The notes under the pieces: model-generated
Database searches by the model: none
What the model saw: only the letters and a program-made list of their open reading frames with translations
What the model was told of the DNA's origin: nothing
Shown: piece after piece, positions 17,444 to 46,499 of the stretch
Position numbering within the stretch: the first letter of the stretch is position 1
Layout: each line of letters opens with the position of its first letter
Assembly: GCF_964213995.1 (NCBI RefSeq)
Contig: NC_135811.1
Span: 110,298,001-110,362,000 of the forward strand
Length of the DNA: 64,000 bases
Reading direction: 5' to 3'
DNA from: Mustelus asterias
Taxonomy: Eukaryota
Made by a program: the position numbers and the translations under genes

Positions 17444-17929
17444 CGCCCAGAATGGTGAGCCAGGATGGATAACCAGCCCTGTTTAACTGGTGTGTTCGTG
17501 CAGTTAATTAGTATAGATAACTAGGTGGTTAACTAGTTTTGATAACTTGGTGATTAACTAGTGTAGATAACCAGGTGGTTAACTAGTGTAGATAACCAGG
17601 GACTGGTTTAAAGCGGTTGGTAACAGCGGCTTTGGGCTGGGATTATTTTTACTCTGTGGGGGGTCCGGAATGGGAAACTTCCAAAACATCGAAACAGCTT
17701 CAGGGGCCGCAGACTAGATGGGCTGAATGGCCGCCTCCTGAACTGAATCAGACTCTGGTTCCAGTCTGAGGGCAGAGAACCGATCCCAATCACTCGGAAC
17801 AAGCTGCCCCGGTTCCCCAGGGGGGTGAGGCCATTCCCGGACTCATTCCCAGACTGTCACCGATCCCAGCTCCGGATTCATTGCGGATTCCGGGTGGTGA
17901 GAACATTCCCCGAAATAGCCCCGGGTGTG

Positions 17930-17935
17930 TATAAA
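17930..17935 (+). promoter_or_regulatory. TATA box of TCAP copy 1
   Basis: TATAAA 77 bp upstream of the ATG; identical in copy 2. Confidence 0.7.
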
Positions 17936-18006
17936 GGGGCGGCTGTCCCCGCACACACAGGCACTGGGAGAAGCTGGTGAACCCAGACAGGGAGACTGTC
18001 GCTGGG

Positions 18007-18125
18007 ATGGAACTGACACCCACTGCCACTCTCAGCTGCTTAGTGAATGAGGAGAACAGCCAGAGGAAGGAGCTTTACTCTGCACAGTGGCAGCAACTCA
18101 GCGTCAGGACACGGGCTCAGGAGCG
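18007..18125 (+). CDS. TCAP: Telethonin (titin-cap) copy 1, exon 1
   Basis: MELTPTATLSCLVNEENSQRKELYSAQWQQLSVRTRAQE-R matches the TCAP N-terminus (LSC.V.EEN..R.E...A.W..L...TR). 119 nt, donor CG|GTGAGT. Confidence 0.93.
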
Positions 18126-18237
18126 GTGAGTCTCCACCCAAACTGTGCCCGGTCCTCACTGGCTCACAGAGGGCCGCTCACTGGAGTATCGCCCAGGGTC
18201 AGCACTGAGAGAACAGCAAGTTACAGCCCAGTGACTG

Positions 18238-18770
18238 AGAGGGGAGAGAAAGAGATAGAGGGGGAGAGAGAGAGAGAGAGAGGGAGAAACAGACAGATGG
18301 AGGGGGAGAGAGAGACACAGTGGGAGAGATAGAGTGAGCGAAAGCGAGACAGAGGGAGATACAGAGAGACATATAGAGAGAGACAGAAAAAACAGAGACG
18401 CATAGAGAGAGACAAAAGGAGGGTCATAGAGTCAGAGAGAAATAGACATAAAGGAACAGGGAGAGAGACAGAGGGAGGGTCACACAGAGAGACAGAGAGA
18501 GACAGGGGGAGGGTCACACAGAGAGACAGAGAGAGACAGAGGGAGGGTCACACAGAGAGACAGAGGGGGGGTCACGCAGAGAGACAGAGGGGGGGGGTCA
18601 CACAGAGAGACAGAGGGGGGGTCACACAGAGAGACAGGGGGGGTCACACAGAGAGACAGAGGGAGGGTCACACAGAGAGACAGAGGGGGGGGTCACACAG
18701 AGAGACAGAGAGAGACAGAGGGGGGGTCACAGAGAGAGACAGAGAGAGAGAGGGGGGGGGGGGTCACGCA
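18238..18770. repeat. GA-rich micro/minisatellite in the TCAP copy 1 intron
   Basis: (GA)n and GGGTCACACAGAGAGACAGAG units. Confidence 0.9.
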
Positions 18771-18891
18771 GAGAGGCACAGCCAGGTTCAGACAGAGATT
18801 GTTTGAGAAAAGGCGTTGTTAATGAAGGGAATATGGATGAGGATCCGGCTAAATCTCCATCTGTTAATCTACATGTTTCTCCTTGTGGCAG

Positions 18892-19303
18892 ATGCTCTTT
18901 AAACGAGGTGGATGATGTCCGGAAGGAGAGTTACAACAGGAAATATCAGGTGACCTACCTGGTGCAGCGAAACCCCAACAATGTGATGAGGATGGGCCGC
19001 TTGGGAGAGGCACTGACTGAGTACCGCCTGCCATACCGCAAGCAGCTGCCACTGCCCATCTTCAGCCCCACTCACATCAGCAACAAGGTGGAAAGGGCAG
19101 TGACTCCCCCAGAGCTAAGTACAATCATTGAGCTGGAGCGAGCTCTGGGCTCGGGCGGCAGGTGTCAGGATAAGAGAGACATCTCCGAGATCACCAGAGA
19201 ACTTCCTCCAGTCATCCAGCCTGTCAGACTGGACAGCAAGAAAGCGGACATGGTGCAAAGATCCCTGTCCAGGTCCATGTCCCAGGAAGCTCAGAGAGGC
19301 TGA
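18892..19303 (+). CDS. TCAP: Telethonin copy 1, exon 2
   Basis: Acceptor TGGCAG|A; CSLNEVD...MRMGRLGEALTEYRLPY...LPLPIF...RSLSRSMSQEAQRG* with the diagnostic TCAP C-terminus. Joins exon 1 in frame (176 aa). AATAAA at 19832 and 19995. Confidence 0.95.
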
Positions 19304-20354
19304 GAGAGGCTGAGAGGCAGTGGGATAGGCTGTGCCTGGGTAGTATTTTGATGCAGTGTACAGTTTAGTCAGTGTGTGAAGATGCGACTTTAGAAGAATG
19401 AGAGGTGATTTCAATGAAACATATAAATTTCTTAAGGGACTTGTTGGAAAGTGTTCCCATTGGCTGGAGATTCTAGAACATGTGCTCAGTCTCGGGGGGC
19501 GGGGGGGGGGGGGTCCATTTCGGATTCCAGGTGGGAAGAATTTTCTTCAGTCGCAGTTTGGAATTTTCTCCACCACAGACCTGCGGCTGCTCCGCCATTG
19601 GATGTGTTCCAGAGGGTGATAGGTCCAAAGGGAATTGCGGGATAGTGGGATGATGTGGAAAGTGGAGATGGATGAGGTCAGTTGGAGTGGAGGAGGCTGT
19701 GTGTGTGTGTGAGGGGTGGAGGGAGAGTCTCTAATTTCTCATGCTCCAGTGTTTAGTGCACTCACTATTCCTGGACAGAGGCTGGCAGTGAGAAAGGTTC
19801 AGAAAGCTTTGATAGAGGATTGGGTAATAGAAATAAAGGTCAAGGAGCAGTGAACACTGGATGTGAGAAGGTCACGGAAGATGCTGAGGCAACACTTCTG
19901 TCTTATATCTCATATCTATATGTGTATCAGTGAGCTTTTGTCCCAGTGCGTTTATTTTAAAATATGAGTGTTTTGTACTGATTTTTGACATTGAAATAAA
20001 ACTGGATAGAACTCTGACTGATTTTCTGATGTTCACACAGTTCTCCATCACACACTCAGTTAGAAACTGGCATCATTAGTGTACCACAGGGCACATGCAA
20101 CGCTGGGGCTGGTATACTTTGTGTGGTACACCATGGTGCATCTTCCTCCAATGCCTCTGCACTCTTATCCAGCTGAGTGGAACTGTTATTGCCTGGTTCC
20201 ATTCTTATTTAATTGTAGCCAGAGAATCATGCAGAATGGCTTCTCTTCCTGTTCCTCTGGTGTCCCCCACACATCTATCTCCGCCCCTTCTCTTTCTAAC
20301 CCAAATGTTGCCTCTTGGCAACAACATCCAAGCACAATGTTAGATTCCACATGT

Positions 20355-20850
20355 ACACATAGAAACCCGGAGCAGGAGGAGGCCATTCGACCCTTTCAGC
20401 TTTATCCGACTCAATAGTCTGATCCCCCCCCCGCCCCTGCCCCCCCATATCCTTCGCTCCCCTTCACCCCAAGAGCTATACCTAACTCCTTGGAAACATA
20501 CAATGTTTTCACCTCAATTACATTCTGTGGTAGCGAATTCCACAGGCTCACCACTGGATGAAGAAATTTCTCCTCACATCTGTTTTAAATGGTTTCCCCT
20601 TACCCTCAGACTGTGACCCTTGGATCTGGACACCCCCACCATCGGGAACATCCTTCCTGCATCTACCCTGTCTGGTCCTGTTAGAATTTTCTAAATTTCT
20701 ATGAGATCTCCCCCCCCCCCCCCCCCCCCCCCCCCGCACCCCCCCCCAACATTCTTCTAAATCCCAGTGAATACAATCCAAACCGACTCAACCTCTCCTC
20801 ATACATCAGTCCCGCCATCCCCGGAATCAGTCTGGTAAACCTCTGCACTC
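20355..20850 (-). mobile_element. CR1 3' fragment
   Basis: Minus strand LYSLEFRR/RRNFF-type CR1 end and 3' UTR GAATGGCCTCCTCCTGCTCC. Confidence 0.7.
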
Positions 20851-21929
20851 CCTCGGCTGTCTGTCATATTTGACCCTGATTTAAGCTTCTGACAATAAAT
20901 TCACCGCATCATTAAGATCACCTATTTCTACATCAGCTGACAGCCCACTTACTCAACTCATATGAACAAATGAACAAGGAGCAGGAGGTCAGCTCCCCAT
21001 CGCCTCCACGCTCATTGACCGCATTGGCTCTCAGTCCAGAGTAGCCTTAATTTTAAAATTCTTATCCCTGTTTTCAAGACGCTCCTTTCCCTATCTCTGC
21101 AACTTGCTCCAGCCCCACAACCCATCGAGGTATCAGTTTTCTTTCTTCTATTCTCTTGAGCATGCTGATTTTAATTGATCCATCCTTGGTGCATATGCTT
21201 TCAACTTCCTTGGTTCTAAACTCTGGAATTCCTAGAATTCCCTCCCTAAACCTCTCCGCCTCTCTCTCTCTCTCTCGCCTCCTTTAAGCTGCTTCTTAAA
21301 ATCAATCTCTTTGATGGAGTTTTTGGTCATCTATCCAATACCTTCTCATGTGTCTTGATGTCAAATGTTGTAAACACTCTGGTGGGCCTTGGCCCATTTA
21401 TGACGTCAGAGGCTTTATGTGTCGGAGGGGCTGCCACACACACGGTGCTGGGATTTAGCTGGCCCTCCATTGCTTACAGCTTTGGTTCAGATGGTTTGAT
21501 TGCCCAAAGACTGGGAATTGAAGTCAGGGCCATGTGATGTTCCTCCAATGAGGAGACTGTGCAGGCTTGCAGGAAAAGGACAAGGATTTGGCAACTTTCC
21601 TGGGCCACAAAAGGAAGATCCTCCAATCAGTGTACAGAGATCTCCCCAACAGAGGGGGGGACTGAGAGACACCAGTTAGTGTAAAAATACCTCCCTGAGA
21701 ATGTGAGACTGAGAGACACCATTCAGGTTACAGATATCTCCCGAAGAGCGAGGGGACTGTGAGACACCTGTCAGTGTACAAATATCTCCCATAGGGAGAA
21801 CAAAACAGAGGTGAGAGACTGTAAGACACCAGTGTACAAAAATCTTCCTGAAAGAGACGGAGAGACTGTGATAAGCTTTACTCTGTATCTATCTGGTGCT
21901 GCACCTGGATGACTGGGGAGTGTGTTGTC

Positions 21930-24289
21930 CAGAGTGAATGACTGGATCTTTTTCTGAGGTGATTGTTTGCATAGTTGCTGCTGCCTAAATTCACAGGGAT
22001 TGTGAACAGAATGAGAGGCAAGAATAACGTTTGCTGATATTCCCACCCTGACTAAACATAGATTAGGCAGCTGTTGTTTACAGTCTGGGTAATGCATTGC
22101 GCTAACTGGTCAGTCAGCTCTCTGGAGAGATATCCTCCACCATCTCGCACTCAAAACAGTTCATTGAAATAGCCATTTAGCTATCATTAAAGGAGAATGA
22201 GATACTCTCACCCATAGGCCAAAGTTTTACGAGATTAATTCCGAGGGCCTGATTTTACCATCAAGTTGCACCTGTTTTTGGGTGTGAAAACTTGGTAAAG
22301 TCGGGCGTGAGGTGAGTAGCGCGGTCTGTGCCCGCCTCCGCGCCGGATCTGTGCCCGCCTCCGCACCGGATCTGTGCCCGCCTCTGCGCCGGAACTGTGC
22401 CCGCCTCCGCGCCGGATCCGTGCCCGCCTCTGCGCCGGATCTGTGCCCGCCTCTGCGCCGGATCTGTGCCCGCCTCCACGCCAGATCAGTGCCCGCCTCC
22501 GCGCCGGATCTGTGCCTGCCTCCGCACCGGATCTGTGCCCGCCTCCGCGCCGGTTCCCCCTTTACCAAGGCCCAAAATGGTCGCGGTCGGGACTGCGCCT
22601 GAAAAGGGCGCGATGGCCATTTAAATGCATTCGCATGCATTTAAATTGACTTAATGGGCTGCACGCCCGACCTTACCGGCACTTCCCCCTTTACCACCGC
22701 GTTCGCCCGTCCAGAATCGGCATGAAACAGACATGCTCCGTATTAGTCTGATTCGGGCGCTCCAGTTAGTGAGGGGGTAAGTGCCGAGTGTCCGACGGCT
22801 CTCTGCATGAGATCGGTGGGGGAGGGGGGGGGGAGGGAAGGGGGGGTTCACTGCCACTCTGCCTGAGATTGGTGGGGGGGAAGAGAGGGAGGAGCCCGTG
22901 TTCAGTCTGGGTAGCGGAAGGGGGAAGGGGGATAAGGGGATCAGTAATGTTGTGGGGGTGGGGCAATGCCTGTGGGGGTCAGGGGGAGGCGTTACCCGGC
23001 CCGGGGGGGATGTGGCAGGGGAACGTTATTCCATCTATTTTTTTTCTGCGCCTGCGCAGTTGGCGACGCCGATCGGAGCAGCAGGGTTACGAGCGCGTTA
23101 AGCGTCTCACACAGGCTTCTGCAGCGTGATTCAGAATTGCTGATATTTTTTCAGGCAGGGTGTGTATGGGAGCGCCTGAGAATGGGTTTAAAAGTCGGAT
23201 CTGAAACACTCCCAGTTTCAAGTCCACCCAGCACTCTGCAAGAGTGCATTCGCATGCATTTAAATTGACTTAATGAGCTGCACGCCCGACCTTACCGGCA
23301 CTTCCCCCTTTACCACCCCGTTCGCCCGTCCAGAATCAGCACGAAACAGACATGCTCCACAAAAGTCTGATTCGGGTGCAGGCATAGATCCGGTGCGGAG
23401 GCGGGCACAGATCCGGTGCGGAGGCGGGCACAGATCCGGTGCGGAGGCGGGCACAGTGCCGGTGCGGAGGCGGGCACAGATCCGCTGCGGAGGCAGGCAC
23501 AGTTCCGGTGCGGAGGCGGGCACAGTTCTGGTGCGGAGGCGGGCACAGATCCGGCGCGGAGGCGGGCACAGTTCCGGTGCGGAGGCGGGCACAGTTCTGG
23601 TGCGGAGGCGGGCACAGATCTGGCGCAGAGGCGGGCACAGATCCAGTGCGGAGGCGGGCACAGATCCGCTGCGGAGGCAGGCACAGTTCCGGTGCGGAGG
23701 CAGGCACAGATCCGGCGCGGAGGCGGGCACAGATCCGGTGCGGAGGCGGGCACAGATCCGGCGCGGAGGCGGGCACAGATCCGGCGCGGAGGCGGGCACA
23801 GATCCGGCGCAGAGGCGGGCACAGATCCGGCGCGGAGGCGGGCACAGATCCGGTGCGGAGGCAGGCACAGATCCGGCGCGGAGGCGGGCACAGACCGCGC
23901 TACTCACCTCACGCCCGACTTTACCAAGTTTTCACACCCGAAAACAGGTGCAACTTGATGGTAAAATCAGGCCCTCGGAATTAATCTCGTAAAACTTTGG
24001 CCTATGGGTGAGAGTATCTCATTCTCCTTTAATGATAGCTAAATGGCTATTTCAATGAACTGTTTTGAGTGCGAGATGGTGGAGGATATCTCTCCAGAGA
24101 GCTGACTGACCAGTTAGCGCAATGCATTACCCAGACTGTAAACAACAGCTGCCTAATCTATGTTTAGTCAGGGTGGGAATATCAGCAAACGTTATTCTTG
24201 CCTCTCATTCTGTTCACAATCCCTGTGAATTTAGGCAGCAGCAACTATGCAAACAATCACCTCAGAAAAAGATCCAGTCATTCACTCTG
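21930..24289. repeat. Large inverted repeat (arms ~21930-22555 and ~23650-24289) built around a MITE-like element with 23-bp internal tandem repeats
   Basis: Identical translations on opposite strands (21771..22097 - and 24122..24331 +). The 23-bp unit GGATCTGTGCCCGCCTCCGCGCC occurs in opposite orientation in the two arms. TIR-like GGGCCTGATTTTACC at 22245. Confidence 0.9.
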
Positions 24290-24359
24290 CAGAATCAAAA
24301 TGGTAAAATAGGACCCCGAGTGTCCAGCTAGCATGAAAATGGGAGAGGTCTGATCCATT

Positions 24360-25400
24360 TTTTGACTAGTGGTGTGCCTCAGGGATCAGTGTTGGGGCCG
24401 CAATTGTTTGCGATTTACATAGATGATTTGGAGTTGGGGACCAAGTGTAGTGTGTCAAAATTCGCAGATGACACCAAGATGAGTGGAAGAGCAAAGTGTG
24501 CAAAGGATGCTGAAAGTCTGCAAAGGGATAGAGATAATCTGAGTGAGTGGGCGAGGGTCTGGCAGATGGAGCACAATGTTGGTAAATGTGAGGTCATCCA
24601 TTTTGGTAGGAATAACAGCAAAATGGACTATTATTTAAATGGTAACAAATTGCAGCATGCTGCTGTGCAGAGGGACCTGGGTGTCCTTGTGCATGAATCA
24701 CAAAATGTTGGTTTCCAGGTGTAGCAGGTAATTAAGAAGGCAAATGGAATTTTATCCTTCATTGATAGAGGGATGGAGTTTAAAAACAGTGAGGTTATGT
24801 TGCAGCTGTATAAGGTGCTGGTGAGGCCACACCTGGAGTACTGTGTACAGTTTTGGTCTCCTTACTTGAGAAAGGATATACTGGCACTGGAGGGGGTGCA
24901 GAGGAGATTCACTAGGTTGATTCCGGAGTTGAGAGGCTTATGAGGAGAGACTGAGTAGACTGGGGCTATACTCGTTGGGATTCAGAAGAATGAAGGGGGG
25001 ATCTTGCAGAATCATATTAAATTATGAAGCAAATAGATAAGATAGAAGCAGGGAAGTTGTTTCCACTGGCGGGTGAAACTAGAACTAGGGGGCATAGCCT
25101 CAAAACAAGAGGAAGCAGATTTAGGACTGAGTTGAGGAGGAACTTCTTCACACAAAGGGTTGTGAATCTGTGGAATTCCCTGCCCAGTGAAGCAGTTGAG
25201 GCTACCTCATTGAATGTTTTTAAGGCAAGGATAGATAAATCTTTGAACAGTAAAGGAATTAATGGTTATGGTGAGCGGGCGGGTAAGTGGAGCTGAGTCC
25301 ATGAAAAGGTCAGCCATGATCTTATTGAATGGCGGAGAAGGCTCGAGGGGCCAGATGGCCTACTCCTGCTCCCAGTTCTTATGTTCTCATGTTCTTATGT
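24360..25400 (+). mobile_element. CR1 LINE 3' fragment
   Basis: GVPQGSVLGP, SKFADDTK, RNFFTQRVVNLWNSLP; (TTCTTATG)n tail. Confidence 0.9.
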
Positions 25401-25404
25401 TATG

Positions 25405-25995
25405 TAGCCCCGCTGCCCCCCCCCCCTCCCTGCTGTCCAGAGCGATCGCGGCCCCCCTTCCCACCCCTACCGATCGCAGGCCGAATGGCAACGGGCCCTC
25501 TCTACCTCCATTGGCTCCGCCCCCAACATCCCCAACCTCCATTGCCCCCCCCCCCCCCGGCACTGCCCAATGGATGGTGCCAAGGTGCCCAGTGGGCATT
25601 GCCCAAGGTGCACCCCCGCTTTGCACTCAGCCTCCCTGGGGAAGTCTCAGTGACCTCCAGTTCCACCGGCGGGGCCAACACAACTGTTCCCCATTCATGG
25701 GGAGGAGGTGTTTTCCTCGCCAGAGAGAACCTCTCCCTGCGAGGCCATAAAGATAAGCGAGCCCGGACGATTGAGCGCCGAGCTCACTAAACAGATATTA
25801 AACAGCTTTTAAATAAATTTAAATAAATGAATCAGCCTCTTGCCCATTCCCGGTGAGAGGCTGACCGCACTGGAAATCCGGGTCTCGTAAAACAGCGAGA
25901 GGTGTGAAAACGGGCGCCATTTCCACCACCCGCTTTACGCCCAATTTTACGACATTTTCCCGCCGCAAAATGGACACAATGAGGTTGTAAAGTTC
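25405..25995. mobile_element. Partial MITE-like non-autonomous DNA element
   Basis: GC-rich body with the palindromic TGCCCA..TGGGCA motif also seen at 34.7 kb, and a TIR-like end GTAAAGTTCCGTCC. Confidence 0.4.
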
Positions 25996-28495
25996 CGTCC
26001 ATGTTGTTCACCATTAACCATCTTGTGGGCTGCGAAATGTGAGCCACAATAACACTCAGCTTTACATCGATTGATGGCGAGTGTCTCGTATTCCAGGAAC
26101 CACTTCCACACCCATTCTGCTTCCAATGTCACAACAAATGATGCTGTCCCACTGCATAGCCCATGAAACAGAGCATGGGCAGCTGGGTGGGTGGGATCAT
26201 TTCACCCGAGGAGTCGCTGGAACCATTTCTTCCAGAGTCCGATGGGTCTGCAGAGCATTTTTATCAGTTTCTCTTTTCAGTTTAGATTTTCATTCCTTTA
26301 ATTTCTGTCATCACTTTATCCACATCGTTTCTTACCCAGCTTTCACCTGGGATGTTAAACCAAGCCCCTGTCCCATCGGTCCTTTCCAGTGGATATAACA
26401 GATCCCTTGTCGCTGCTTTGAACTCTTTGGAGGAAGGGCAGGAGTTATTCCCTTTGCTGCCGTTTATCAGGGTCTGATTGTCCCAAGTGGCCACAGGGTC
26501 TGAAGGAAAGAGATGGAGCATTTTATCAACTGATAATCACTGAAACAGGTTATCTGCTCATTACCCCATTGCTGTCTGTGGGAGCTTGCTGTGCACAAAC
26601 TGGCTGCTGCATTTCATAAAGGACTTCATTATCTCTCGGACATCCTGTCGTTGTGAAGGGTACGGGAGAGATTCAAGCCCCCCTTGCTTCGTTCTCTTTC
26701 ATTTCTCTAATCCCCCATTCCCTCTTATCCTTTCTCTCTTACCCATTCCTCGGTCATTGGGAGCAGATTCTCCTGATATCGTTATCATTCCTGGAAAAGG
26801 TTCCTGTGTGAAGCTGTTTCACAGCAATGCCATTCGCTGTATCCGAGCAACTCAGAGAGTCGTTGTTATTGGAATCTGCCCTTCTTCCATTTCGCCGAGT
26901 ATAGGATAAGCAGGGACCCTTCGACTTGTGATGTCATCCTTCCGGTGAGGAGGATAGAACAAATTCCCTCTTGGATTCCCACCTTCTGGCAAACGGCATT
27001 GGGGGAGGATGGCTAATGATTGGGGAAACATTAATACATGGAGCAGCCTCCCCTACAGACCTTCCCTCTGTCTATGTCCATCTGTGACAATCAGATTATT
27101 AAACATGGGGAGAAACTTGGGATCCAATGTCCAGGAAATCACATACTCAGGATGTTATTCTTTACATCTCATTCACTGGTGCAGGAAAGAATGGGGACTG
27201 CATCACTGCTCCAAGAAACATTCCGGTCCTACAACAAACATTCCAAAATTCATAAAATTCCCACCTCTGTCTGAGACATGTAACAGTGAGTGGGAGATAC
27301 ATTGAAACTGAGACACAGATGCATTAAAGTTGTAACAAAGAGATTGGGTCAGAGAGAAATTGAGTGAGAAGTTTAACCTGTCCATTTTTCCAATGTCAAG
27401 TCAGTGTTAAAACTCCAGAACCTGCTGCTTCCGGATGGCAGTGAACATGGAAAAGGTGCCACATGGAATTGGATCATTATAATCTCCCAGGTCTCCACGT
27501 GACGCAGGAAACTCGAGACTCTGCGCTAGTTATAACTGCACTTGCTCTTCCACAGATTTGACAATAATTATAAATCCTCTGGTCTTAGACGCAATGTTAA
27601 AATAAAAACAGAATTGCTGGAATAAATCTGCAAGCTGCTCTCCCCTAAGGGAGCCATTAAGTCCATCAGTTAAGCATTTGCCTCAGAAGTTTCCAGTCCA
27701 TGATTAAGACTCTGGCTGGACTAATGATGGAAACTTGGATGGAATGTGGAATGTGGTCATTACCTTGGCTCAGATTGTTCCTGGCAGGAAGCCTCTAATT
27801 TTGGTGCAGTGGGGTTAAGTTGCAGAAGGAGCCTGTTTCTGGACAGATTGTGCCCCATGCCTGGACCCAGGCTGTTCCTGTTATTAAGTTTAAAATGAGA
27901 AAATTTAACAGAGGGAATGAACTCCTTCAGGAAAAGACTCTTGAAACTATCGCTTTCAGAACTATTTCCATTTCTCAGCATTTAAACTAGTTTCTGTTCG
28001 AATATCTCAGTCCTGACAATTCTCCTGATTCTCCCCAGCCTCTCCCACTTCCTTCAAACTAATTTCACAGGACAGGAATAAGAGGCCATTCGGCCCGTTG
28101 TGTGTGAGCTAGCCTTATGAATGAATTGTCATTATTCTGACATTTCCTTGGACACGTTTAATTAAATTACTTTCAAATATTTATCCACTTTCTTTGAGAA
28201 GAAATTTTAGATACTGGTTCCCAACTTTCTCGAACTGTTTCTGCTCAGTAAATGCTCCATTCAAACACTGGGATCCTCCTGCCGCGCTCGCCCCAAAACC
28301 GGAGAATCCTGCCCAATTCAATGGACCTTTGCGTGGTCCGTTCCTCGCCCGCTATGATTCCCGTGGAGGCGGGACGGGAGAATTGCCCCCACTTTCTGTT
28401 TAAAACAATTTCTCCTCCCATCCGCCTTTGTGATTTTAGTAAATGATAAACCTTCGGTTTTACCCATTCTTGGAACAGTGACATATTCTCCCTAC

Positions 28496-34290: not shown

Positions 34291-34312
34291 AACCCTGTTT
34301 TGGAGACACTAC

Positions 34313-35651: not shown

Positions 35652-36164
35652 ACATCTGGAACACCACGTTCAGTTTTGGTCTTCACATTTAGGAAAGGAT
35701 ACCCGGGCGTTGGAGGGAGTACAGCAAGGTTCACTAGATTGGCTCATTGGGATGAGGGGGTGAGTAAATTGGGTTTATATTCTCTGGAGTTTAGAAAAAT
35801 GAGAGATGACCTCACAGAAACCGACAGGATTCTGAGGGGTTTGATAGGGTGGATGCGGAGAAACTGTTTCCATTGGTCGGGGAATCTGAAACATGGTGGG
35901 GGGTGGGGAGGGGCTCAGTCTCAGGGGGGCTGATCATTTGGGACTGAGATAAGGAGAAATTCTTCCACTCAAAGCGTTGTGAACCTTTGGAATTCTCTCC
36001 CCCAGAGGGTTGTGGATGCTCAGGTGTTGAATATATTTAAGGCTGGGACAGGCAGATTTTGGACTCAGGGGAATTAAGGGATCGGAGAGTGGGTGGGAAA
36101 ATGACGTTGAAACCCAAGATCCATCAAGAATGGTGGAGATGCTCAATGAGTTATACGGTCCAGT

Positions 36165-37225: not shown

Positions 37226-37889
37226 TCATAGAATCATAGAATCTACGGCACGGAGACAAGCCTTTCAGCCCAAACTGGTTCCTGCCGACCAAAATATCCA
37301 TCTAAACTAACCCCGTTATATTATTCTAAATTTATTACACTTTCTGTAATTTTCAATATTTTGTAAGGTATTTTAACAAATTTAATGAATAAAGTATTTT
37401 TTTAAAGATATAGACATACTGATGCTAACTTTCACTCAGATACAGCTTACCTGATATTACCTAATACTGAGGCACTAACTCTGCGGGAGATATTCCTCTG
37501 CTATCTGCGATTATCTGCTGCGCTGAAGCACCACATTATTGAAACACCAGAGGGCACCAGCGAGCCAGAGTTCACTCTATTGAATCATAGAATGGTTACA
37601 GCTCAGAATGAGGCCATTCGGCCCAGTGTATCTGTGTGGCTCTACAGAAACAACTAGGCTGGCCCCACTCCTCCTGTCCTTCCCGCATAGACCTATAATT
37701 TTAGCTGCTTCTCCATTTCCCCATTGAAAGTCAGGACTGTATCTGCTTGCACCTTATGCTCAGATGGTGAATTCCAGATCCTGACAGTTTGCTGCATAAT
37801 TTTCCTCACGTTGAACAAAGAACAAAGAACAGTACAGCACAGGAAACAGGCCCTTCGGCCCTCCAAGCCTGTGGCGCTCCTTGGTCCAA

Positions 37890-40828
37890 CTAGACCAATC
37901 GTTTGTATCCCTCCATTCCCAGGCTGCTCATGTGACTATCCAGGTAAGTCTTAAACGATGTCAGCGTGCCTGCCTCCACCACCCTACTTGGCAGCGCATT
38001 CCAGGCCCCCACCACCCTCTGTGTAAAAAACATCCCTCTAATATCTGAGTTATACTTCGCCCCTCTCACCTTGAGCCCGTGACCCCTCGTGAACGTCACT
38101 TCTGATCTGGGAAAAAGCTTCCCACCGTTAACCCTATCTATCCCCTTCATAATCTTGTACACCTCTTTTAGATCTCCTCTCATTCTCCGTCTTTCCAGGG
38201 AGAACAACCCCAGTTTACCCAATCTCTCCTCATAGCTAAGACCCTCCATACCAGGCAACATCCTGGTAAACCTTCTCTGCACTCTCTCTAACGCCTCCAC
38301 GTCCTTCTGGTAGTGCGGTGACCAGAACTGGACGCAGTACTCCAAATGTGGCCTAACCAGCGTTCTATACAGCTGCATCATCAGACTCCAGCTTTTATAC
38401 TCTATACCCCATCCTATAAAGGCAAGCATACCATATGCCTTCTTCACCACCTTCTCCACCTGTGTTGCCACCTTCAAGGATTTGTGGACTTGCACACCTA
38501 GGTCCCTCTGTGTTTCTATACTCCTGATGACTCTGCCATTTATTGTATAACTCCTCCCTACATTATTTCTTCCAAAATGCATCACTTCACATTTATTCGG
38601 ATTAAACTCCATCTGCCACCTCTCCGCCCAATTTTTCAGCCTATTTATATCCTGCTGTATTGCCCGACAATGCTCTTCGCTATCCGCAAGTCCAGCCATC
38701 TTCGTGTCATCCGCAAACTTGCTGATTACACCAGTTACACCTTCTTCCAAATCATTTATATATATCACAAATAGCAGAGGTCCCAGTACAGAGCCCTGCG
38801 GAACACCACTGGTCACAGACCTCCAGCCGGAAAAAGACCCTTCGACCACTACCCTCTGTCTCCTGTGGCCAAGCCAGTTCTCCACCCATCTAGCCACTTC
38901 TCCTTGTATCCCATGAGCCTTAACCTTCTTAACCAACCTGCCATGTGGGACTTTGTCAAGTGCCTTACTGAAATCCATATGGACAACATCCACGGCCCTT
39001 CCTTCGTCAACCGTTTTTGTCACTTCCTCAAAAAACTTCACCAAATTTGTAAGGCACGACCTCCCTCTTACAAAACCATGCTGTCTGTCACTAATGAGAT
39101 TGTTCCGTTCTAAATGCACATACATCCTGTCTCTAAGAATCCTCTCCAACAACTTCCCTACCACGGACGTCAAGCTCACCGACCTATAATTTCCTGGGTT
39201 ATCCCTGCTACCCTTCTGAAACAACGGGACCACATTCGCTATCCTCCAACCCTCAGGGACCTCACCCATGTCCAAAGAAGCGACAAAGATTTCCGTCAGA
39301 GGCCCAGCAATTTCATCTCTCATCTCCCTGAGCAGTTGAGGATAGATGCCATCAGGCCCTGGGGCTTTGTCAGTTTTAATGTTCCCTAAAAAACCTAACA
39401 CTTCCTCTCTTGTAATGGAGATTTTCTCTAACGGGTCAACACCTCCCTCCGAGACACTCCCGGTTAACACGCCCCTCTCCTTCGTGAATACCGATGCAAA
39501 GTATTCATTTAGGATCTCCCCTATTCCCTTGGGTTCTAAGCATAATTCCCCTCCTTTGTCCCTGAGAGGTCCGATTTTCTCCCTGACAACTCTTTTGTTT
39601 CTAACGTATGAATAGAATGCCTTAGGATTCTCCTTAATCCTGCCTGCCAAGAACATCTCGTGACCGCTTTTTGCTCTTCGAACTCCCCGTTTGAGTTCTT
39701 TCCTACTCTCTCTGTATTCTTCCAGAGCTCCATCTGTTTTCTGTTGCCTGGACTTAACGTACGCCTCCCTTTTCATTTTAATCAGATCCTCAATTTCCCT
39801 GGTTATCCACGGCTCTTGAATCCTACCTTTCCTATCTTTCCTTTTTACAGGCACATGCCTATCCTGCAGCCTTATCAATAGTTCCTTAAAAGACTCCCAC
39901 ATGCCAGACGCGGACTTACCCTCGAACATCCTCTCCCAATCAACATCCATCAATTCCTGCCTAATCCGGCTATAGTTAGCCTTCCCCCAATTTAGCACCC
40001 TGCCCGTAGGACAGCACTCATCCTTGTCCATTACTATCCTAAAGTTAACAGAGTGTGGTCACTATTTGCCACATGTTCCCCTACCGAAACTTTGACGACC
40101 TGACCGGGCTCATTTCCCAGAACTAGGTCCAGTATAGCCCCCTCTCTAGTCGGGCTATCTACATACTGTTCCAAAGAACCTTCCAGTATGCATTTTACAA
40201 ATTCCTCCCCGTCCGGACCCCCAGCTCTAAGCACTTTCCAGTCTGTGCCAGGGAAATTAAAGTCCCCCACTACAACAACCCTATTTTTTGTGCACCTATC
40301 CAGAATCTCCTGACATATCCTTTCCTCCACTTCCCGTGGGCTGTTGGGTGGTCTGTAGTACACCCCCAGCATAGTGACTGCACCCTTCCTGTTTCTGAGT
40401 TCCACCCACAGCGACTCAGTACATGACCCCTCTAAGTTGTCTACCCTCTGCACCGCGGTAATATGCTCCTTAACTAATATCGCTACTCCCCCACCTTTTT
40501 TAGCCCCTCCTCTGTCTCGCATAAAACACTTATACCCCAGAATATTCAGCTGCCAGTCCTGTCCTTTTAACCAAGTTTCCGTAACCGCAACCACATCCAA
40601 ATTCCGCACAAGCATTAAGGCCCTAAGTTCGTCTGTTTTACCCGTTACGCTCCCCGCATTGAAGCAGATGCACTCCAGACCTCCAGGCCCAGTCAGGTCA
40701 TCCTCCTCCAGAGTGCTCCTCTTCTTAGCTAGCCTTGCCCTGGCCCCCAGCTCGACCCCAGCCTCAGTATTTACTGACCTACTGTTTTGTTCCCCACCCC
40801 CCTGCCACTCTAGTTTAAATCCTGCCAA
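37890..40828 (-). pseudogene. CR1 ORF2 (APE endonuclease + reverse transcriptase) with one frameshift at ~40050
   Basis: 264-aa EN frame (VAVTETW, YYRPPN, VGDFN, LDLVL, SDH) then a 713-aa RT frame (QHGF, QGSVLGP, FADDTK). Confidence 0.9.
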
Positions 40829-41736
40829 AACACTCTAGCAAAACTCCCAGCCAGGATATTTGCTCCCTTCCAGTTAAGGTGTAACCCATCCTTTCTGTAC
40901 AGTTGCCATCCTGACTTGAAGATTTCCCAGTTATCTATGAATTTAAAACCCTCCCTCTTGCACCAGTCCTTTAGCCACGCGTTCAACTGTAGAATCTCCC
41001 TGTTCCGAGCTTCACTTGCACTAGACACCGGGAGCAGTCCAGAGATTGCTACACTGGAGGTCTTACTTTTTAGCCCAGCACCCAACTCCCTGAATTTCTC
41101 TCGTATGACCCCCCTGCTCTTCCTACCTACATCATTTTCACCAATGTGTATAATCACATCCGTTTGACTACCTTCCTTTTTAAATATGCTTCCTACCCTC
41201 TCGGAGACATCCAGTACCCCAGCACCAGGGAGGCAGACTACCATCCTGGATTCTCGTTCACTCCCACAGAACCGCCTGTCCGTGCCTCTAACCATTGCGT
41301 CCCCTACAACTATCGCTCTCCTAAACCCCTTCTTTCCCTTCCGGACCCCTGAGCCTGTCTCCGTAGAGGCGATCTGGTCCTCGTGGCTTACCCCTGGAGG
41401 GTCATCCCCCTCCACAGAATCCAAAACAATATACCTATTTTGGAGGGGGACAACCACAGGGGATCCCTCCACAGACTGCTCACTCCCTTCCCTTCTCCCA
41501 TCTGTTGCCCATCCCTTTCTTTTATGGGAGACTGCCACTGGGGTACTTTCTGGCACATCACCCTTCTGACTATTACCCCTCCTAACTGTGACCCACGTGT
41601 CTTCCTTCCGAGACCCTGGTGTCACTACCTGACTATAACTTTCATCTATTAATCTCTCATTTTCCCTAACTAAACTGAGTTCATCGAGCCTCAGCTCCAG
41701 CTCCCTCACACGATCCTTCAGGAGTTGCAGTTCCAC
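40810..41736 (-). CDS. CR1 ORF1 (coiled coil + SGNH esterase-like domain), N-terminus incomplete
   Basis: ELQLLKDRVRELELRLDEL coiled coil; IVVGDAMVRG, CLPGA, HIGEND and DGLHLN esterase motifs typical of CR1 ORF1. Confidence 0.85.
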   Translation of the reverse strand: MELQLLKDRVRELELRLDELSLVRENERLIDESYSQVVTPGSRKEDTWVTVRRGNSQKGDVPESTPVAVSHKRKGWATDGRREGSEQSVEGSPVVVPLQNRYIVLDSVEGDDPPGVSHEDQIASTETGSGVRKGKKGFRRAIVVGDAMVRGTDRRFCGSERESRMVVCLPGAGVLDVSERVGSIFKKEGSQTDVIIHIGENDVGRKSRGVIREKFRELGAGLKSKTSSVAISGLLPVSSASEARNREILQLNAWLKDWCKREGFKFIDNWEIFKSGWQLYRKDGLHLNWKGANILAGSFARVFWQDLN

Positions 41737-41809
41737 ACATCTGGCACAGATATGGACTTCCGGGAGGACTTTTATATTTTTGCCATTTTTTGCATTATTC
41801 TTGAAAACA

Positions 41810-42376
41810 NNNNNNNNNNNNNNNNNNNNNNNNNNNNNNNNNNNNNNNNNNNNNNNNNNNNNNNNNNNNNNNNNNNNNNNNNNNNNNNNNNNNNNNNNNN
41901 NNNNNNNNNNNNNNNNNNNNNNNNNNNNNNNNNNNNNNNNNNNNNNNNNNNNNNNNNNNNNNNNNNNNNNNNNNNNNNNNNNNNNNNNNNNNNNNNNNNN
42001 NNNNNNNNNNNNNNNNNNNNNNNNNNNNNNNNNNNNNNNNNNNNNNNNNNNNNNTGTGGGAGTGTGNNNNNNNNNNNNNNNNNNNNNNNNNNNNNNNNNN
42101 NNNNNNNNNNNNNNNNNNNNNNNNNNNNNNNNNNNNNNNNNNNNNNNNNNNNNNNNNNNNNNNNNNNNNNNNNNNNNNNNNNNNNNNNNNNNNNNNNNNN
42201 NNNNNNTGTNNNNNNNNNNNNNNNNNNNNNNNNNNNNNNNNNNNNNNNNNNNNNNNNNNNNNNNNNNNNNNNNNNNNNNNNNNNNNNNNNNNNNNNNNNN
42301 NNNNNNNNNNNNNNNNNNNNNNNNNNNNNNNNNNNNNNNNNNNNNNNNNNNNNNNNNNNNNNNNNNNNNNNNNNNN
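41810..42376. other. Assembly gap / N-masked region
   Basis: Run of N with a few called TG-rich bases. Confidence 1.
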
Positions 42377-43873
42377 TATGTGTGGGTGAGTGTGTGTGGG
42401 TATGTGTATGTATGTAAATTATTTAATTATGTTGAGGAAAAGTTACTCGGGGTAGGTTGTCTGGGGGTTTAAGACATGAAAGAGTAGAGGTGTTCAGTTT
42501 GTGCATTAGTAATGAAATAATATTGGTGGTTTTGAGGTGCAACTAAATAGGCTGGATATAACATTTACCTTTTTAAATGTTTGAATATCAAATAAAAGTC
42601 AAAGGTGTCAAGAAAGATTTTCCAGGGTTCCATTGGATAAAGGGAAGACGGCGTGTTCGACGTTATTGACCCGGAAACAGACAAAATAGAAATATGGAAG
42701 ATTTCACATTTAGAATTATCTGAGTTCCAAAGAGATGTGGGAACATTGGAGCCTGAGGGAGGGGGAGGTGAAAGGTATTTTAGAGATACTGACGAGATCT
42801 TAGGTGTTGCCTGTGTGAGAAAAATCGCCCAGAAACAGCCTTGGGCTGAGAGAAAGTGCAGCTGTCCAGCAAGGCCAGAAAAATCCTGAGGCTGAGGAAA
42901 GCAGTCTTGTTTCTGAAAGTTTCTTAGATTTCCACAGCAGAGTGGAAGAGCTTAATGGGTTGGGTGGTTTACCATATTAAGGTGATGTCTTTTGGGTAAG
43001 ATTACTGGATTTTTATCTGGGTTAAACATCTATAAGGGAGTATTGCCTGGAAGGTGTTTACTTGTGGATCTGGCTAGTAGGAAGTCTTTTGGAGGTATAT
43101 TTTGTAAGACTAATTTTAACTGTGTAACTATAATCTTATGTGCTTAAGTTTTCTTTTCTTCTTGTTGATAAACCTTTTACTTTTCTTTAAATTCCAGAAG
43201 AGTTTGAGATTTCTTTCTGCTGAGGTTAGTATGTTTCCCTCTTGGTTTCACATTGCAAATGAAAGGTTATGGCCCATTAGTCAAGTTTCCCTCTGGGATT
43301 TGGTTTGATCAGCAATTAACATAACCAGACAAAACTTTAAAGGGAGGCTGGCGATTCTTGGTCTTGCCCTTTCTTGGCCTTTCCTGAGGAGAGCTCGATA
43401 CAGCAGAAAGGTCATAGAAGCAGCAGGAACTGACTGGTTTTCTCTTTGATATATTTTTCCTCCTAATCAATTGCTCAGTTGGTGATGTTTGACATTTGGA
43501 CCATGACATATGAGTGTGTATCTGTGTAAAACCACATCTCCCGATGTTGACAGGTAACAACATCTAAGTGAAGTAAATCCAGTCACTACAATGTTAGACA
43601 TGGAGGAGAACCCAGGACCACTTGGGATAGAGAGACAACACCCAAAGCAACAACCGCCCTGAGGGGAAAATTGACACCGGGAAATGATTCACTTTAGCAT
43701 CATGGAGTATCCTGGGTTAGAGCAGTTAGTGAACTGTCCCAGGTTAGAGCTGGGGACGTGAGCAAGTGAGGTGAGTATAGTTCTCAGGGCAACCATGTAT
43801 TGTTTTGGTGACAAATGCAGAATGGTCTCAGTGGAGGGAGGATTCTGATTATAAAGTCCGGCACTGGAAGTAA

Positions 43874-44225
43874 AGGCGGCACGGTAGCACAGTGGTTAGC
43901 ACTGCTGGTTCACAGCTCCAGGGACCTGGGTTCGATTCCCAGCTCGGGTCACTGTCTGTGTGGAGTTTGCACATCCTCCTCGTGTCTGCGTGGGTTTCCT
44001 CTGGGTGCTCCGGTTTCCTCCAACAGTCCAAAGATGTGCGGGTTAGGTTGATTGGCCGTGCTAAAATTGCCCCTTAGTGTCTTGAGATGGGTAGGTTAGT
44101 GGGATTAGTGGGTAAATATGTAGGGATATGGGGGTAGGGCCTGGGTGGGATTGTGGTCGGTGCAGACTCGATGGGCCGAATGGCCTCTTTCTACACTGTA
44201 GGGTTTCTATGATTCTTCTATGATT
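43874..44225 (+). mobile_element. HE1-like SINE, full length
   Basis: GGCGGCACGGTAGCACAGTGGTTAGC...GGGTTCGATTCC...TTTCTATGATT; nearly identical to 36575-36920. Confidence 0.85.
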
Positions 44226-44873
44226 CTTTCTATGAATGTGGCCCTGTCTCCTGTAACCCTCTCCCAGCCCATCGACACTCACGCCTCACCCTCCCTATAC
44301 AACTCTCATCCCTCCCCCTCCTTCCCGCCCCCCTTCCTCCCTCCCCACCACCCCCCCGCCCCCCCACACACACTCTCTGTTATGTTATTGGCGATTGCGA
44401 TTCCTATTGTTGTCTCCAGAATGTTCACTTTTCTTGCTTTTATAACCTAAACCCCACAGTAGGGAGCGAGTTTACAGCCGTCGCTTTGCATTCTTGGCTT
44501 CAGGTTAATTCTTTTTCGAATGAAGCGTTTTTGGATATTTTTCCATTTGTTGCCAGCGAGTCTCTGAGGAAATTATGAAACTGTCTCAAAGCAGCAAGTT
44601 CCTCAGTCATTCTTTATTAAAAATAAAATGAAACTTTCCAGTGAATAATTACAAAAATAAGTCAGGAAACATCTACTTAAATACAATCTTTTTGCTTTAG
44701 TGCCCGAAGTACATTTCACATAATCGCTAAACTTCCAGTTACATTTCACAATTTCTTCCACTTGCTGTCCTGCCTCTCACTCCATCATCATCCGACCCAC
44801 AAAATCTCCCCCCGCGAAACATTCCTCAACACAGTCAGCCTTTGCACTCAGTCCCGCCGCCTCTCAGCCTCTC

Positions 44874-45285
44874 TCAGCCTCTCTGAGCTTCCTGGGACAT
44901 GGACCTGGACAGGGATCTTTGCACCATGTCCGCTTTCTTGCTGTCCAGTCTGACAGGCTGGATGACTGGAGGAAGTTCTCTGGTGATCTCGGAGATGTCT
45001 CTCTTATCCTGACACCTGCCGCCCGAGCCCAGAGCTCGCTCCAGCTCAATGATTGTACTTAGCTCTGGGGGAGTCACTGCCCTTTCCACCTTGTTGCTGA
45101 TGTGAGTGGGGCTGAAGATGGGCAGTGGCAGCTGCTTGCGGTATGGCAGGCGGTACTCAGTCAGTGCCTCTCCCAAGCGGCCCATCCTCATCACATTGTT
45201 GGGGTTTCGCTGCACCAGGTAGGTCACCTGATATTTCCTGTTGTAACTCTCCTTCCGGACATCATCCACCTCGTTTAAAGAGCAT
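44874..45285 (-). CDS. TCAP: Telethonin copy 2, exon 2
   Basis: Reverse complement of 18892-19303 with an identical translation; own AATAAA at 44618-44613. Confidence 0.95.
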
Positions 45286-45407
45286 CTGCCACAAGGAGAA
45301 ACATGTAGATTAACAGATGGAGATTTAGCCGGATCCTCATCCATATTCCCTTCATTAACAACGCCTTTTCTCAAACAATCTCTGTCTGAACCTGGCTGTG
45401 CCTCTCT

Positions 45408-45915
45408 GTCTCTCTGTGTGACCCCCCCTCTGTCTCTCTCTCTGTCTCGGTCTGTGACTCTCTGTATGACCCTCCCTCTGTCTCTCTCTCTCTCTCTGTC
45501 TGTGACTCTCTGTGTGACCCACCCTCTGTTTGTCTCTCTGTATTTCTCTCTCTCGCTCTCCCTGTTCCTTTATATCTATTTGTCTCTCGGTCTTTCTGTA
45601 TCTCTCTCTGTCGCTGATTCTCTCACTGGCTTTCTCTCTCTCTCTTCCTCTGTCTCTGTGCGCGTCTGTTTTCTCTCACTCTCGAATTATCTCTCTCTGT
45701 CTCTCTGTTGATCTCACTTTATTCTCTCTGTGTGTGTCTCTCTGTGTGTGTCTCTCTTTGTCTCTCTCTCTGTCACTATTTTCTCTCTGACTCCTCTCCC
45801 CCCCCCCCACCCCCCGCGTCTCTGTCTCCTTATTTCTCTATATATATATTTCTATGTCTCTTTGTATCTTTCTCTCTATCCCCCCTGTCTGTGTTCCCCC
45901 TCCCCCTCTGTGCCT
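45408..45915. repeat. CT-rich microsatellite in the TCAP copy 2 intron
   Basis: (CT)n/(CTGT) tract of similar composition to, but different sequence from, 18238-18770. Confidence 0.9.
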
Positions 45916-46027
45916 CAGTCACTGGGCTGTAACTTGCTGTTCTCTCAGTGCTGACCCTGGGCGATACTCCAGTGAGCGGCCCTCTGTGAGCCAGTGAGGA
46001 CTGGGCACAGTTTGGGTGGAGACTCAC

Positions 46028-46146
46028 CGCTCCTGAGCCCGTGTCCTGACGCTGAGTTGCTGCCACTGTGCAGAGTAAAGCTCCTTCCTCTGGCTGTTCT
46101 CCTCATTCACTAAGCAGCTGAGAGTGGCAGTGGGTGTCAGTTCCAT
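46028..46146 (-). CDS. TCAP: Telethonin copy 2, exon 1
   Basis: ATG at 46146, 119 nt, donor GTGAGT; identical to 18007-18125. Confidence 0.93.
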
Positions 46147-46217
46147 CCCAGCGACAGTCTCCCTGTTTGGGTTCACCAGCTTCTCCCAGTGCCTGTGTGT
46201 GCGGGGACAGCCGCCCC

Positions 46218-46223
46218 TTTATA
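46218..46223 (-). promoter_or_regulatory. TATA box of TCAP copy 2
   Basis: TATAAA at the same distance from the ATG as in copy 1. Confidence 0.7.
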
Positions 46224-46499
46224 CACACCCGGGGCTATTTCGGGGAATGTTCTCAGTGTCTAAATTCACTCGAACAACTCACCGCAGAATTGTTGACTCG
46301 CTCCCAGTGATTTCCAGATATCAGCACCTAAAGTTCAAGCTTCACAGCTGTCTGTGTGACTGCCCAGAGCAGGGATAATGTTCCTAATCGGATTAATGAG
46401 CAGTCCTGCTTCACATTGACCAGAATCAGGCTCTGAGCAACAAAGGAGCCGATTGAACGACTGGAACAATCCCCAAAGTCAGGGCGAAGATCAAAGGAC

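What the first reader, a model, noticed from the sequence alone, without database searches (positions are those of the whole stretch)
17898..46255. Two inverted telethonin (TCAP) genes with identical exons but unrelated surroundings: candidate concerted evolution by gene conversion
Seen: 17898-19318 (+) and 46255-44859 (-) match from 109 bp upstream of the ATG (including the TATA box) to 15 bp past the stop. By eye there are no exonic differences, only one 5' UTR difference (CAGAC/CAAAC) and one intronic difference (CCCGG/CCCAG) in the unique parts. The central intronic GA microsatellite is clearly diverged (introns 766 vs 742 bp). Upstream regions, 3' UTRs and poly(A) signals are unrelated. 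Known: TCAP is single-copy in mammals and caps titin Z1Z2 at the Z-disc; inverted paralogue pairs can be homogenised by intrachromosomal conversion. Inference: an old duplication whose alignable core is repeatedly converted, yielding one protein under two different enhancer/3' UTR regimes (for example heart vs skeletal muscle). The ~25-kb interval could also flip by recombination.
Basis: partly seen in the sequence, partly recalled or inferred. Interest (0 to 1): 0.82.

Follow-up and report, generated by a model that had tools for sequence, protein, structure and literature searches.

The report
Twin shark telethonin genes kept identical
A shark carries two facing copies of the muscle gene telethonin whose coding sequences are letter-for-letter identical while their surroundings are unrelated, most likely because the copies keep overwriting each other; several other fishes and amphibians also have more than one copy.

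Summary
Observation confirmed. Two intact two-exon TCAP genes lie tail-to-tail, 25,540 bp apart, between PNMT and a melanoregulin-like gene. Coding sequences are identical (531/531 nt). The shared blocks of 342 and 550 bp differ at 2 sites, and the flanks are unalignable. The protein equals RefSeq 'telethonin-like' of Mustelus asterias.

An old pair under gene conversion fits best (0.72, inferred). Intron identity is graded from 100% to unalignable. The shared block stops at the promoter motifs and 15 nt past the stop. Each copy has its own poly(A) context, there is no insertion scar, and GC3 is raised.

New here: coelacanth, lungfish, caecilians and axolotl also have 2-3 TCAP proteins, which group within their lineage; caecilian sites are a mosaic.

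Not shown: a second locus in any other shark, read support, expression, or inversion polymorphism. A skate annotation lists only one Tcap.

The mechanism is known (Drosophila Amy/Hsp70, BMP8A/B, yeast flip/flop). I found no report of it for TCAP in the library searched. New member of a known kind.

The parts
17898..18239 (+). Shared block 1 of copy A: core promoter, 5' UTR, exon 1 and first 114 nt of the intron
   Evidence: 342 bp, 2 differences from copy B
17904..17942 (+). Promoter motifs at the edge of the shared block: MCAT/TEAD-type CATTCC (-103), MEF2-like A/T box (-97), TATA (-77), GC box (-71)
   Evidence: Positions; motif names recalled, function not tested
18007..18125 (+). TCAP-A coding exon 1
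   Evidence: Pfam Telethonin 33.7 bits, cut-off 25; GT donor at 18126
18240..18768 (+). Copy A GA-rich intron middle: unalignable 5' tract, 18-bp anchor at 18448, shared minisatellite (about 11 units)
18769..19318 (+). Shared block 2 of copy A: last 123 nt of the intron, exon 2, 15 nt past the stop
   Evidence: 550 bp, 0 differences
18892..19303 (+). TCAP-A coding exon 2, stop included
   Evidence: Pfam Telethonin 171.7 bits
19319..20015 (+). Copy-A-specific putative 3' UTR; AATAAA at 19832 and 19995, the latter with upstream TGTA and 74% A+T
   Evidence: 3' end inferred, no RNA data
17600..17897 (+). Copy-A-specific upstream region with three further MCAT-type motifs (17667, 17832, 17844)
   Evidence: P about 0.01 against window background, chosen after seeing the sequence
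19319..44858 (.). 25,540-bp spacer: both 3' UTRs, LINE and SINE-like repeats, tandem repeats and the N-run named in the finding; no host gene found
   Evidence: 197 of 197 unmasked ORFs of 36 aa or more scanned, 1 sub-threshold zinc-finger hit; no Rfam hit; length
44600..44858 (-). Copy-B-specific putative 3' UTR; AATAAA at 44618 with upstream TGTA and 78% A+T
   Evidence: inferred
44859..45408 (-). Shared block 2 of copy B (exon 2 coding 45285-44874)
45409..45913 (-). Copy B GA-rich intron middle; anchor at 45573, about 3 minisatellite units
45914..46255 (-). Shared block 1 of copy B (exon 1 coding 46146-46028; TATA 46223)
46256..46527 (-). Copy-B-specific upstream region, one CAGCTG E-box at 46350
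   Evidence: motif name recalled
4829..4981 (-). Neighbour: first coding exon of a PNMT-family gene, head-to-head with TCAP-A
   Evidence: Pfam NNMT_PNMT_TEMT E 1.3e-4, 21.8 bits, under the cut-off of 25 for this single exon
50388..60593 (-). Neighbour: melanoregulin-like gene upstream of TCAP-B on the same strand
   Evidence: Four exons match Pfam MREG positions 1-149 in order, three above cut-off; candidate Cys-rich first exon at 60593 has no Pfam hit

Best explanation
Two functional TCAP genes from an old local duplication sit as an inverted, tail-to-tail pair and are kept identical by recurrent ectopic gene conversion. SHOWN: identity, boundaries, orientation as assembled, unrelated flanks, intact reading frames. 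INFERRED: purifying selection on the exons and core promoter keeps a seed of homology. [quoted passage not shown] Tracts end where homology has been lost: the slippage-prone GA tract, the 3' UTRs and the distal promoters. This leaves two blocks of 342 and 550 bp. Because the copies are inverted, a crossover would flip the apparently gene-free spacer and swap the two 3' UTRs between the promoters instead of deleting a copy, so the pair is stable. INFERRED, weaker: the result is one protein from two transcription units, kept for dosage and possibly for different regulation (A has extra MCAT and GATA-type motifs, B an E-box).
For: (1) Graded mosaic inside one gene: 0 of 550, 2 of 342, about 90% in the minisatellite, then unalignable. 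One recent copying event predicts one level of divergence. (2) Outer edges coincide with functional limits, 6 nt before the first promoter motif and 15 nt after the stop. (3) Each copy has its own strong poly(A) context; such sites occur 2 times in 41.9 kb of background, about 3% per 700 nt (criteria set after seeing the sites). (4) No target-site duplication of 6 nt or more within 40 nt of either copy's ends; intron and promoter retained. (5) Selection alone cannot explain it: 0 differences at about 121 synonymous sites and 2 in 361 non-coding sites, while shark orthologues differ at 22-34% of residues. The last 20 intron codons read in frame differ at 8 positions in another, unnamed TCAP record P0005. 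(6) GC3 is 69% (122/176) against 49% (120/247) in neighbouring exons, P=2.6e-5, as expected from GC-biased conversion. (7) Two or three TCAP proteins share the same longest-contig length in Latimeria, Protopterus, Rhinatrema and Ambystoma and group within their lineage: 100/98, 96/89, caecilians 100/96, salamanders 100/100. Cross-class by-locus clades are rejected (4 of 4 tested, p-AU 5e-4 or less). The caecilian quartet has 7 sites by locus, 5 by species and 0 crossed (one-sided P=0.03), i.e. an old pair with partial exchange. (8) 9 of 10 shark and ray entries are named 'telethonin-like', as this known two-copy case is, against 0 of 17 frog entries with either name. That RefSeq adds '-like' when no one-to-one orthologue is assigned is my recall.
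Against: No DNA from a second shark was available, so the age of this pair is not measured. Each shark or ray appears as a single 90% cluster, which fits one copy as well as homogenised copies. In the little skate annotation, multi-copy symbols carry suffixes (Actc1-1, Actc1-2) but Tcap (LE25000) has none, which points to one gene model there (PMC10115646 supplement rows). Mobula is named plain 'telethonin'. Complex GA tracts change fast, so their divergence is a poor clock. GC3 has no single-copy TCAP control. The caecilian by-species sites are not clustered (runs test P=0.42). Pleurodeles P0065 and P0095 (97% alike) have different contig lengths and may be one gene from two assemblies. No read or RNA data were seen.
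Confidence: 0.72

Rival explanations
1. A recent, lineage-specific inverted duplication of a 1.4-kb piece by template switching or end joining. The exons are identical because they are young, and the GA tract has been scrambled since by slippage.
For: Both outer boundaries are abrupt. Neutral-site divergence of 0.4% (95% interval 0.05-1.5%) is what a young duplicate shows. One gene model in the skate annotation. No second shark locus seen.
Against: It needs the 5' GA tract to lose all detectable homology while 482 roughly neutral sites gain 2 changes. It also needs breakpoints at the promoter motif and the stop codon, and a landing site beside a strong poly(A) context (about 3%). No insertion scar. 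Multi-copy TCAP in four other lineages.
Confidence: 0.15
2. Assembly artefact. Either one copy is false, or two real but slightly diverged copies were made identical by repeat collapse or polishing; orientation across the N-run could also be wrong.
For: An N-run lies between the copies. Reads were not available. Perfect identity over 550 bp is also what a collapsed consensus gives.
Against: A false haplotype copy would duplicate flanks, and these are unrelated. Two copy-specific bases survive on either side of exon 1. Each copy joins unique sequence with its own poly(A) context. The matching RefSeq protein lies on a 111.7-Mb sequence. In the yeast flip/flop case, independent long-read assemblies agreed on such repeats (PMC9731477 section 10).
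Confidence: 0.08
3. On the deep history only: the shark pair is old and converted, but the extra copies in coelacanth, lungfish, caecilians and salamanders are separate duplications of a duplication-prone small gene, not one ancestral pair.
For: The protein tree taken at face value says exactly this: copies group within lineage and by-locus clades are rejected. Ambystoma has three copies. Quartets across classes show 0-1 by-locus sites against 16-41 by-species sites.
Against: It needs at least five independent same-chromosome gains, against one gain and about three losses. Conversion gives the same tree. The caecilian pair shows that old TCAP pairs persist and exchange.
Confidence: 0.45
4. An old pair held identical by purifying selection alone.
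For: Identity is centred on exons and promoter.
Against: Synonymous and intron sites are identical too, and the protein differs by 22-34% between sharks.
Confidence: 0.01

Closest known systems
Drosophila Amy-p/Amy-d and Hsp70 inverted pairs (PMC3924832, passages read)
   Same: [quoted passage not shown]
   Different: There it is proven by cross-species DNA and shared polymorphism. Here it is one genome, a vertebrate sarcomere gene, and the shared part includes the core promoter and intron ends.
Mammalian long-lived converted pairs BMP8A/B, DDX19A/B, TUBG1/2 (PMC2720389, abstract and Results read)
   Same: Mosaic homogenisation, raised GC3 in two of the three pairs, diverged upstream regions; BMP8A/B is inverted.
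   Different: Those pairs are over 100 My old and mammal-specific, with a whole intron above 97%. Here the entire CDS is identical, the intron is only partly shared, and the pair may be much older.
Saccharomyces 24-kb flip/flop region (PMC9731477, abstract and section 10 read)
   Same: A roughly 25-kb interval bounded by a homogenised inverted gene repeat.
   Different: The yeast repeat is 4 kb and encloses 15 genes, and both orientations are documented. Here homology is 342 + 550 bp, no gene was found inside, and no inversion has been shown.
Capitella teleta Dlx tail-to-tail pair (PMC3199776, passages read)
   Same: Tail-to-tail paralogues with conversion over exon plus adjoining intron.
   Different: Only about 150 bp are converted there; the rest of those genes is divergent.
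Vertebrate telethonin/TCAP (Pfam PF09470; PDB 2F8V, 1YA5)
   Same: Full-length homologue including the N-terminal region present in 1YA5; next to PNMT.
   Different: Two copies in inverted layout; mammals have one (recalled).

Membership tests
Telethonin/TCAP | Pfam PF09470 above the curated cut-off | tested here: met
   33.7 and 171.7 bits against 25, covering model positions 1-163
Telethonin/TCAP | Homology to solved telethonin, including the N-terminal titin-binding part | tested here: met
   2F8V_T E 1.6e-41, 1YA5_T E 3.3e-20; that residues 1-90 bind titin is recalled
Telethonin/TCAP | Linkage with PNMT | tested here: met
   PNMT-family exon at 4981-4829. Human linkage seen only as a table row in PMC3276178; gene order recalled
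Telethonin/TCAP | Binds titin Z1Z2 at the Z-disc; muscle expression | not testable with these tools
   No expression or binding data
Inverted pair under concerted evolution (Amy/Hsp70 type) | Linked copies in inverted orientation | tested here: met
   As assembled, 25,540 bp apart
Inverted pair under concerted evolution (Amy/Hsp70 type) | Homogeneity extends to synonymous and non-coding sites while flanks are unrelated | tested here: met
Inverted pair under concerted evolution (Amy/Hsp70 type) | Duplication predates speciation, and paralogues are closer within than between species | tested here: inconclusive
   Paralogues 100% against orthologues 66-78%, but no second locus verified in another shark. 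Indirect signs for and against
Inverted pair under concerted evolution (Amy/Hsp70 type) | Shared polymorphisms between copies | not testable with these tools
   No population data
Inverted pair under concerted evolution (Amy/Hsp70 type) | Raised GC3 | tested here: met
   69% against 49% in neighbouring exons; no single-copy TCAP control
Carson and Scherer 2009 screen class (PMC2720389) | More than 97% identity over two consecutive exons and their whole intervening intron | tested here: not met
   Only 237 of 766 intron bases lie in the shared blocks; not filed in this class
Flip/flop inversion region | Both orientations of the interval occur among haplotypes | not testable with these tools
   One haplotype only; not filed here
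Retrocopy or transposon-carried duplicate | Intron loss or poly(A) tail, target-site duplication, no promoter | tested here: not met
   Intron kept, TATA and 32 nt upstream included, no duplication of 6 nt or more at the ends

The most novel reading that the evidence does not exclude
The TCAP pair dates from the last common ancestor of jawed vertebrates (over 400 My, age recalled) and has been under recurrent conversion since. Conversion would be complete in sharks and partial in caecilians and axolotl, escaped at different times in coelacanth and lungfish, with reduction to one copy in ray-finned fish, frogs and amniotes. It would be several times older than the mammalian pairs in PMC2720389, a graded natural series for how duplicates escape conversion, and would mean human TCAP is the survivor of a pair.
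Probability: 0.3. Interest if true: 0.72.

Novelty: new member of a known kind. Interest (0 to 1): 0.5.

Why it matters
If confirmed, this is a compact vertebrate example (a two-exon gene with sharp tract edges) of coding-limited concerted evolution. Related pairs at 65-87% protein identity in other lineages allow a direct test of how long conversion lasts and what ends it; here a microsatellite splits the tract. It changes the orthology of a human muscular dystrophy and cardiomyopathy gene (disease link recalled): protein trees would date the duplication wrongly, and coding-region RNA-seq cannot tell the two shark genes apart. It is not a new mechanism.

Tried and rejected
Cluster membership and accession lists for the shark proteins, which would have shown two loci per species, could not be queried, so copy number in other sharks stayed unchecked. 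The available genome collections hold only bacteria, archaea, phages and plasmids, so no flanks from relatives were fetched.

Residual homology in the flanks: a by-eye likeness upstream and around the poly(A) signals is not significant (best 20 of 200 shuffles).

Genes in the spacer: none found. 448 of 454 listed ORFs of 36 aa or more were scanned window-wide; 5 in an AC repeat and 1 short ORF were left out, and shorter or repeat-masked exons were not scanned. Rfam gave 0 hits.

Literature: no paper on duplicated or converted TCAP in seven searches (listings only). One search gave no TCAP promoter study to check the motifs against. The library lacks most subscription journals. Supplements: catshark PMC11979771 unreadable; PMC5278576 0 hits with 3 files unsearched; PMC3964593 0 hits; PMC12241362 main text 0 hits. 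Unseen supplements may bear on copy number. The axolotl preprint 10.64898/2026.08.27.747356 names one telethonin-like locus in passing.

One search does not show this (different lengths for Pleurodeles, none given for Geotrypetes), and it is withdrawn. Holding the two Rhinatrema copies together is weakly rejected (p-AU 0.04), so caecilian exchange is partial at most.

Full report
1. Observation. The finding is accurate. Copy A (17898-19318, +) and copy B (46255-44859, -) share two blocks, 342 bp with 2 differences and 550 bp with none. Each copy has two coding exons (A 18007-18125 and 18892-19303; B 46146-46028 and 45285-44874) and a GT-AG intron of 766 or 742 nt. The 531-nt coding sequences are identical and encode a 176-residue protein equal to the RefSeq record 'telethonin-like [Mustelus asterias]'. 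It matches Pfam Telethonin above cut-off and the solved telethonin chains 2F8V and 1YA5. The flanks align no better than shuffles, and no other unique DNA is repeated in the same register.

2. Surroundings. Pfam scans of 448 of 454 unmasked ORFs found a PNMT-family first exon at 4981-4829 (-) and a melanoregulin-like gene on the minus strand from about 60593 to 50388. Read along the minus strand, the order is melanoregulin-like, TCAP-B, then TCAP-A facing it, then PNMT. Copy B thus has the orientation relative to PNMT that I recall for human TCAP, and copy A is the inverted one. The 25,540-bp spacer holds both 3' UTRs and repeats, including a near full-length LINE, but no host gene or Rfam RNA was found. 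The N-run named in the finding is broken by two short islands. I cannot tell whether it is a gap or masking, so orientation across it rests on the assembly.

3. Old or young: evidence inside the window. Identity is graded within the intron: near-perfect ends, a shared minisatellite at about 90% behind an 18-bp unique anchor, and a 5' GA tract no more alike than simulated sequence (254 of 500). The shared region begins 6 nt before an MCAT-type motif followed by a MEF2-like box and TATA (names recalled) and ends 15 nt past the stop. Each copy has its own AATAAA with upstream TGTA in A+T-rich sequence (19995 and 44618). That combination occurs twice in 41.9 kb of background (criteria set after the fact). 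No target-site duplication of 6 nt or more flanks either copy, and retention of the intron and promoter excludes a retrocopy. About 121 synonymous sites show no difference and 361 non-coding sites show two, whereas shark orthologues differ at 22-34% of residues. The intron end is not ultraconserved either (8 of 20 in-frame codons differ in record P0005), so selection cannot hold these sites. GC3 is 69% against 49% in neighbouring exons. None of these points is proof, since GA tracts mutate fast. Together they fit repeated conversion better than one recent event.

4. Evidence from other species, proteins only. Three homologue searches (the last two list only the best 120 of 175 and 247 hits) show two or three distinct TCAP proteins with the same longest-contig length in Latimeria (83% alike), Protopterus (65%), Rhinatrema (83%) and Ambystoma (70-87%). 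Geotrypetes also has two (71%; no contig given). Adjacency and orientation are unknown. A tree of 50 named proteins out of the 123 then held (unnamed records and redundant frogs, squamates and mammals left out) groups copies within lineage. AU tests on 26 rows reject 4 of 4 cross-class by-locus clades. Within caecilians the a and b loci predate the Rhinatrema-Geotrypetes split (7 sites by locus), yet 5 sites group by species and none crosswise, suggesting partial exchange. In axolotl, copy c is 90-92% like its paralogues in exon 1 but 62-66% in exon 2. Every shark and ray shows one 90% cluster, which cannot distinguish one gene from homogenised twins. Nine of ten are named 'telethonin-like', as this two-copy case is, against none of 17 frogs. 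Against this, the skate annotation in PMC10115646 gives Tcap without the copy suffix it uses for multi-copy genes, and the Pleurodeles pair may be one gene from two assemblies. Accession-level checks could not be made.

5. Mechanism. Most likely (0.72), selection keeps the exons and core promoter alignable, ectopic repair from the copy 25 kb away overwrites them together with nearby neutral bases, and tracts stop at lost homology. In an inverted pair, crossover flips the spacer instead of deleting a copy (established recombination logic); here that would swap the 3' UTRs between the two promoters. The likely benefit is dosage of a structural Z-disc protein. Split regulation is possible (three extra MCAT-type motifs upstream of A, an E-box upstream of B) but untested. 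Rivals: recent duplication 0.15, assembly artefact 0.08, selection alone 0.01. On depth of history, independent duplications in each lineage (0.45) remain somewhat more likely than one jawed-vertebrate pair (0.3); the remainder covers intermediate histories.

6. Comparison and novelty. It works like Drosophila Amy and Hsp70 (PMC3924832, passages), Capitella Dlx (PMC3199776, passages), mammalian BMP8A/B (PMC2720389, abstract and Results) and the yeast 24-kb flip/flop (PMC9731477, abstract and section 10). It is a TCAP by every feature tested. It is a probable but unproven member of the concerted inverted pairs, because the cross-species criterion is open. It fails the whole-intron filter of PMC2720389 and cannot be filed as a flip/flop. 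Seven searches of the held library found no report of duplicated or converted TCAP; subscription journals and several supplements were not seen.

7. Verdict. A real feature with a known kind of mechanism, in a gene where I found no prior report, and with a wider vertebrate pattern worth one comparative-genomics check.

Noticed in passing
window 37890-41808 (-): Near full-length LINE in the spacer: ORF1 with a GDSL/SGNH esterase domain, endonuclease and reverse transcriptase, ORF2 in two frames. Part of it is 94-95% like fragments at 62619-64000, a recently active family; CR1/L2 type by recall.
   Followed up: partly
window 31967-33978 and 51090-53129 (+): Two 2-kb LINE copies, 85% alike, in direct orientation on either side of TCAP-B; a possible substrate for deleting copy B.
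   Followed up: no
window 50388-60593 (-): Melanoregulin-like gene directly upstream of TCAP-B. I recall no such gene beside human TCAP, so it is a useful synteny marker.
   Followed up: partly
window 14683-17443 and 46528-48307: Both copies have large tandem arrays a few hundred bases upstream (16-bp unit x173 for A; GT-rich tract and 33-bp unit x33 for B), leaving only about 450 and 270 bp of unique proximal promoter.
   Followed up: no
window 17503-17600: 25-bp tandem repeat carrying four GATA-type motifs upstream of copy A only.
   Followed up: no
window 18452-19303 (+) and 45569-44874 (-): The intron's 3' part is open in frame with exon 2 and has an ATG 60 nt before the acceptor. Record P0005 has the same in-frame start, probably a gene-caller artefact.
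   Followed up: partly
proteins P0081 (Emydura) and P0110 (Carettochelys): A single sequence is named 'telethonin-like' by one source and 'telethonin' by another; possibly two identical loci in these turtles.
   Followed up: no
protein clusters P0069 (Alligator) and P0060 (Hymenochirus): The alligator TCAP cluster carries a PGAP3 isoform name, and the Hymenochirus cluster has two locus tags; both may bear on TCAP orientation or copy number.
   Followed up: no
window 7822-8049 (-) and 31496-31627 (+): An integrase zinc-binding fragment and a sub-threshold RING-like zinc finger, probably retroelement remnants.
   Followed up: no
window 22325-22553 and 23381-23894: Two arrays of the same 23-bp unit in opposite orientation about 830 bp apart inside the spacer.
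   Followed up: no
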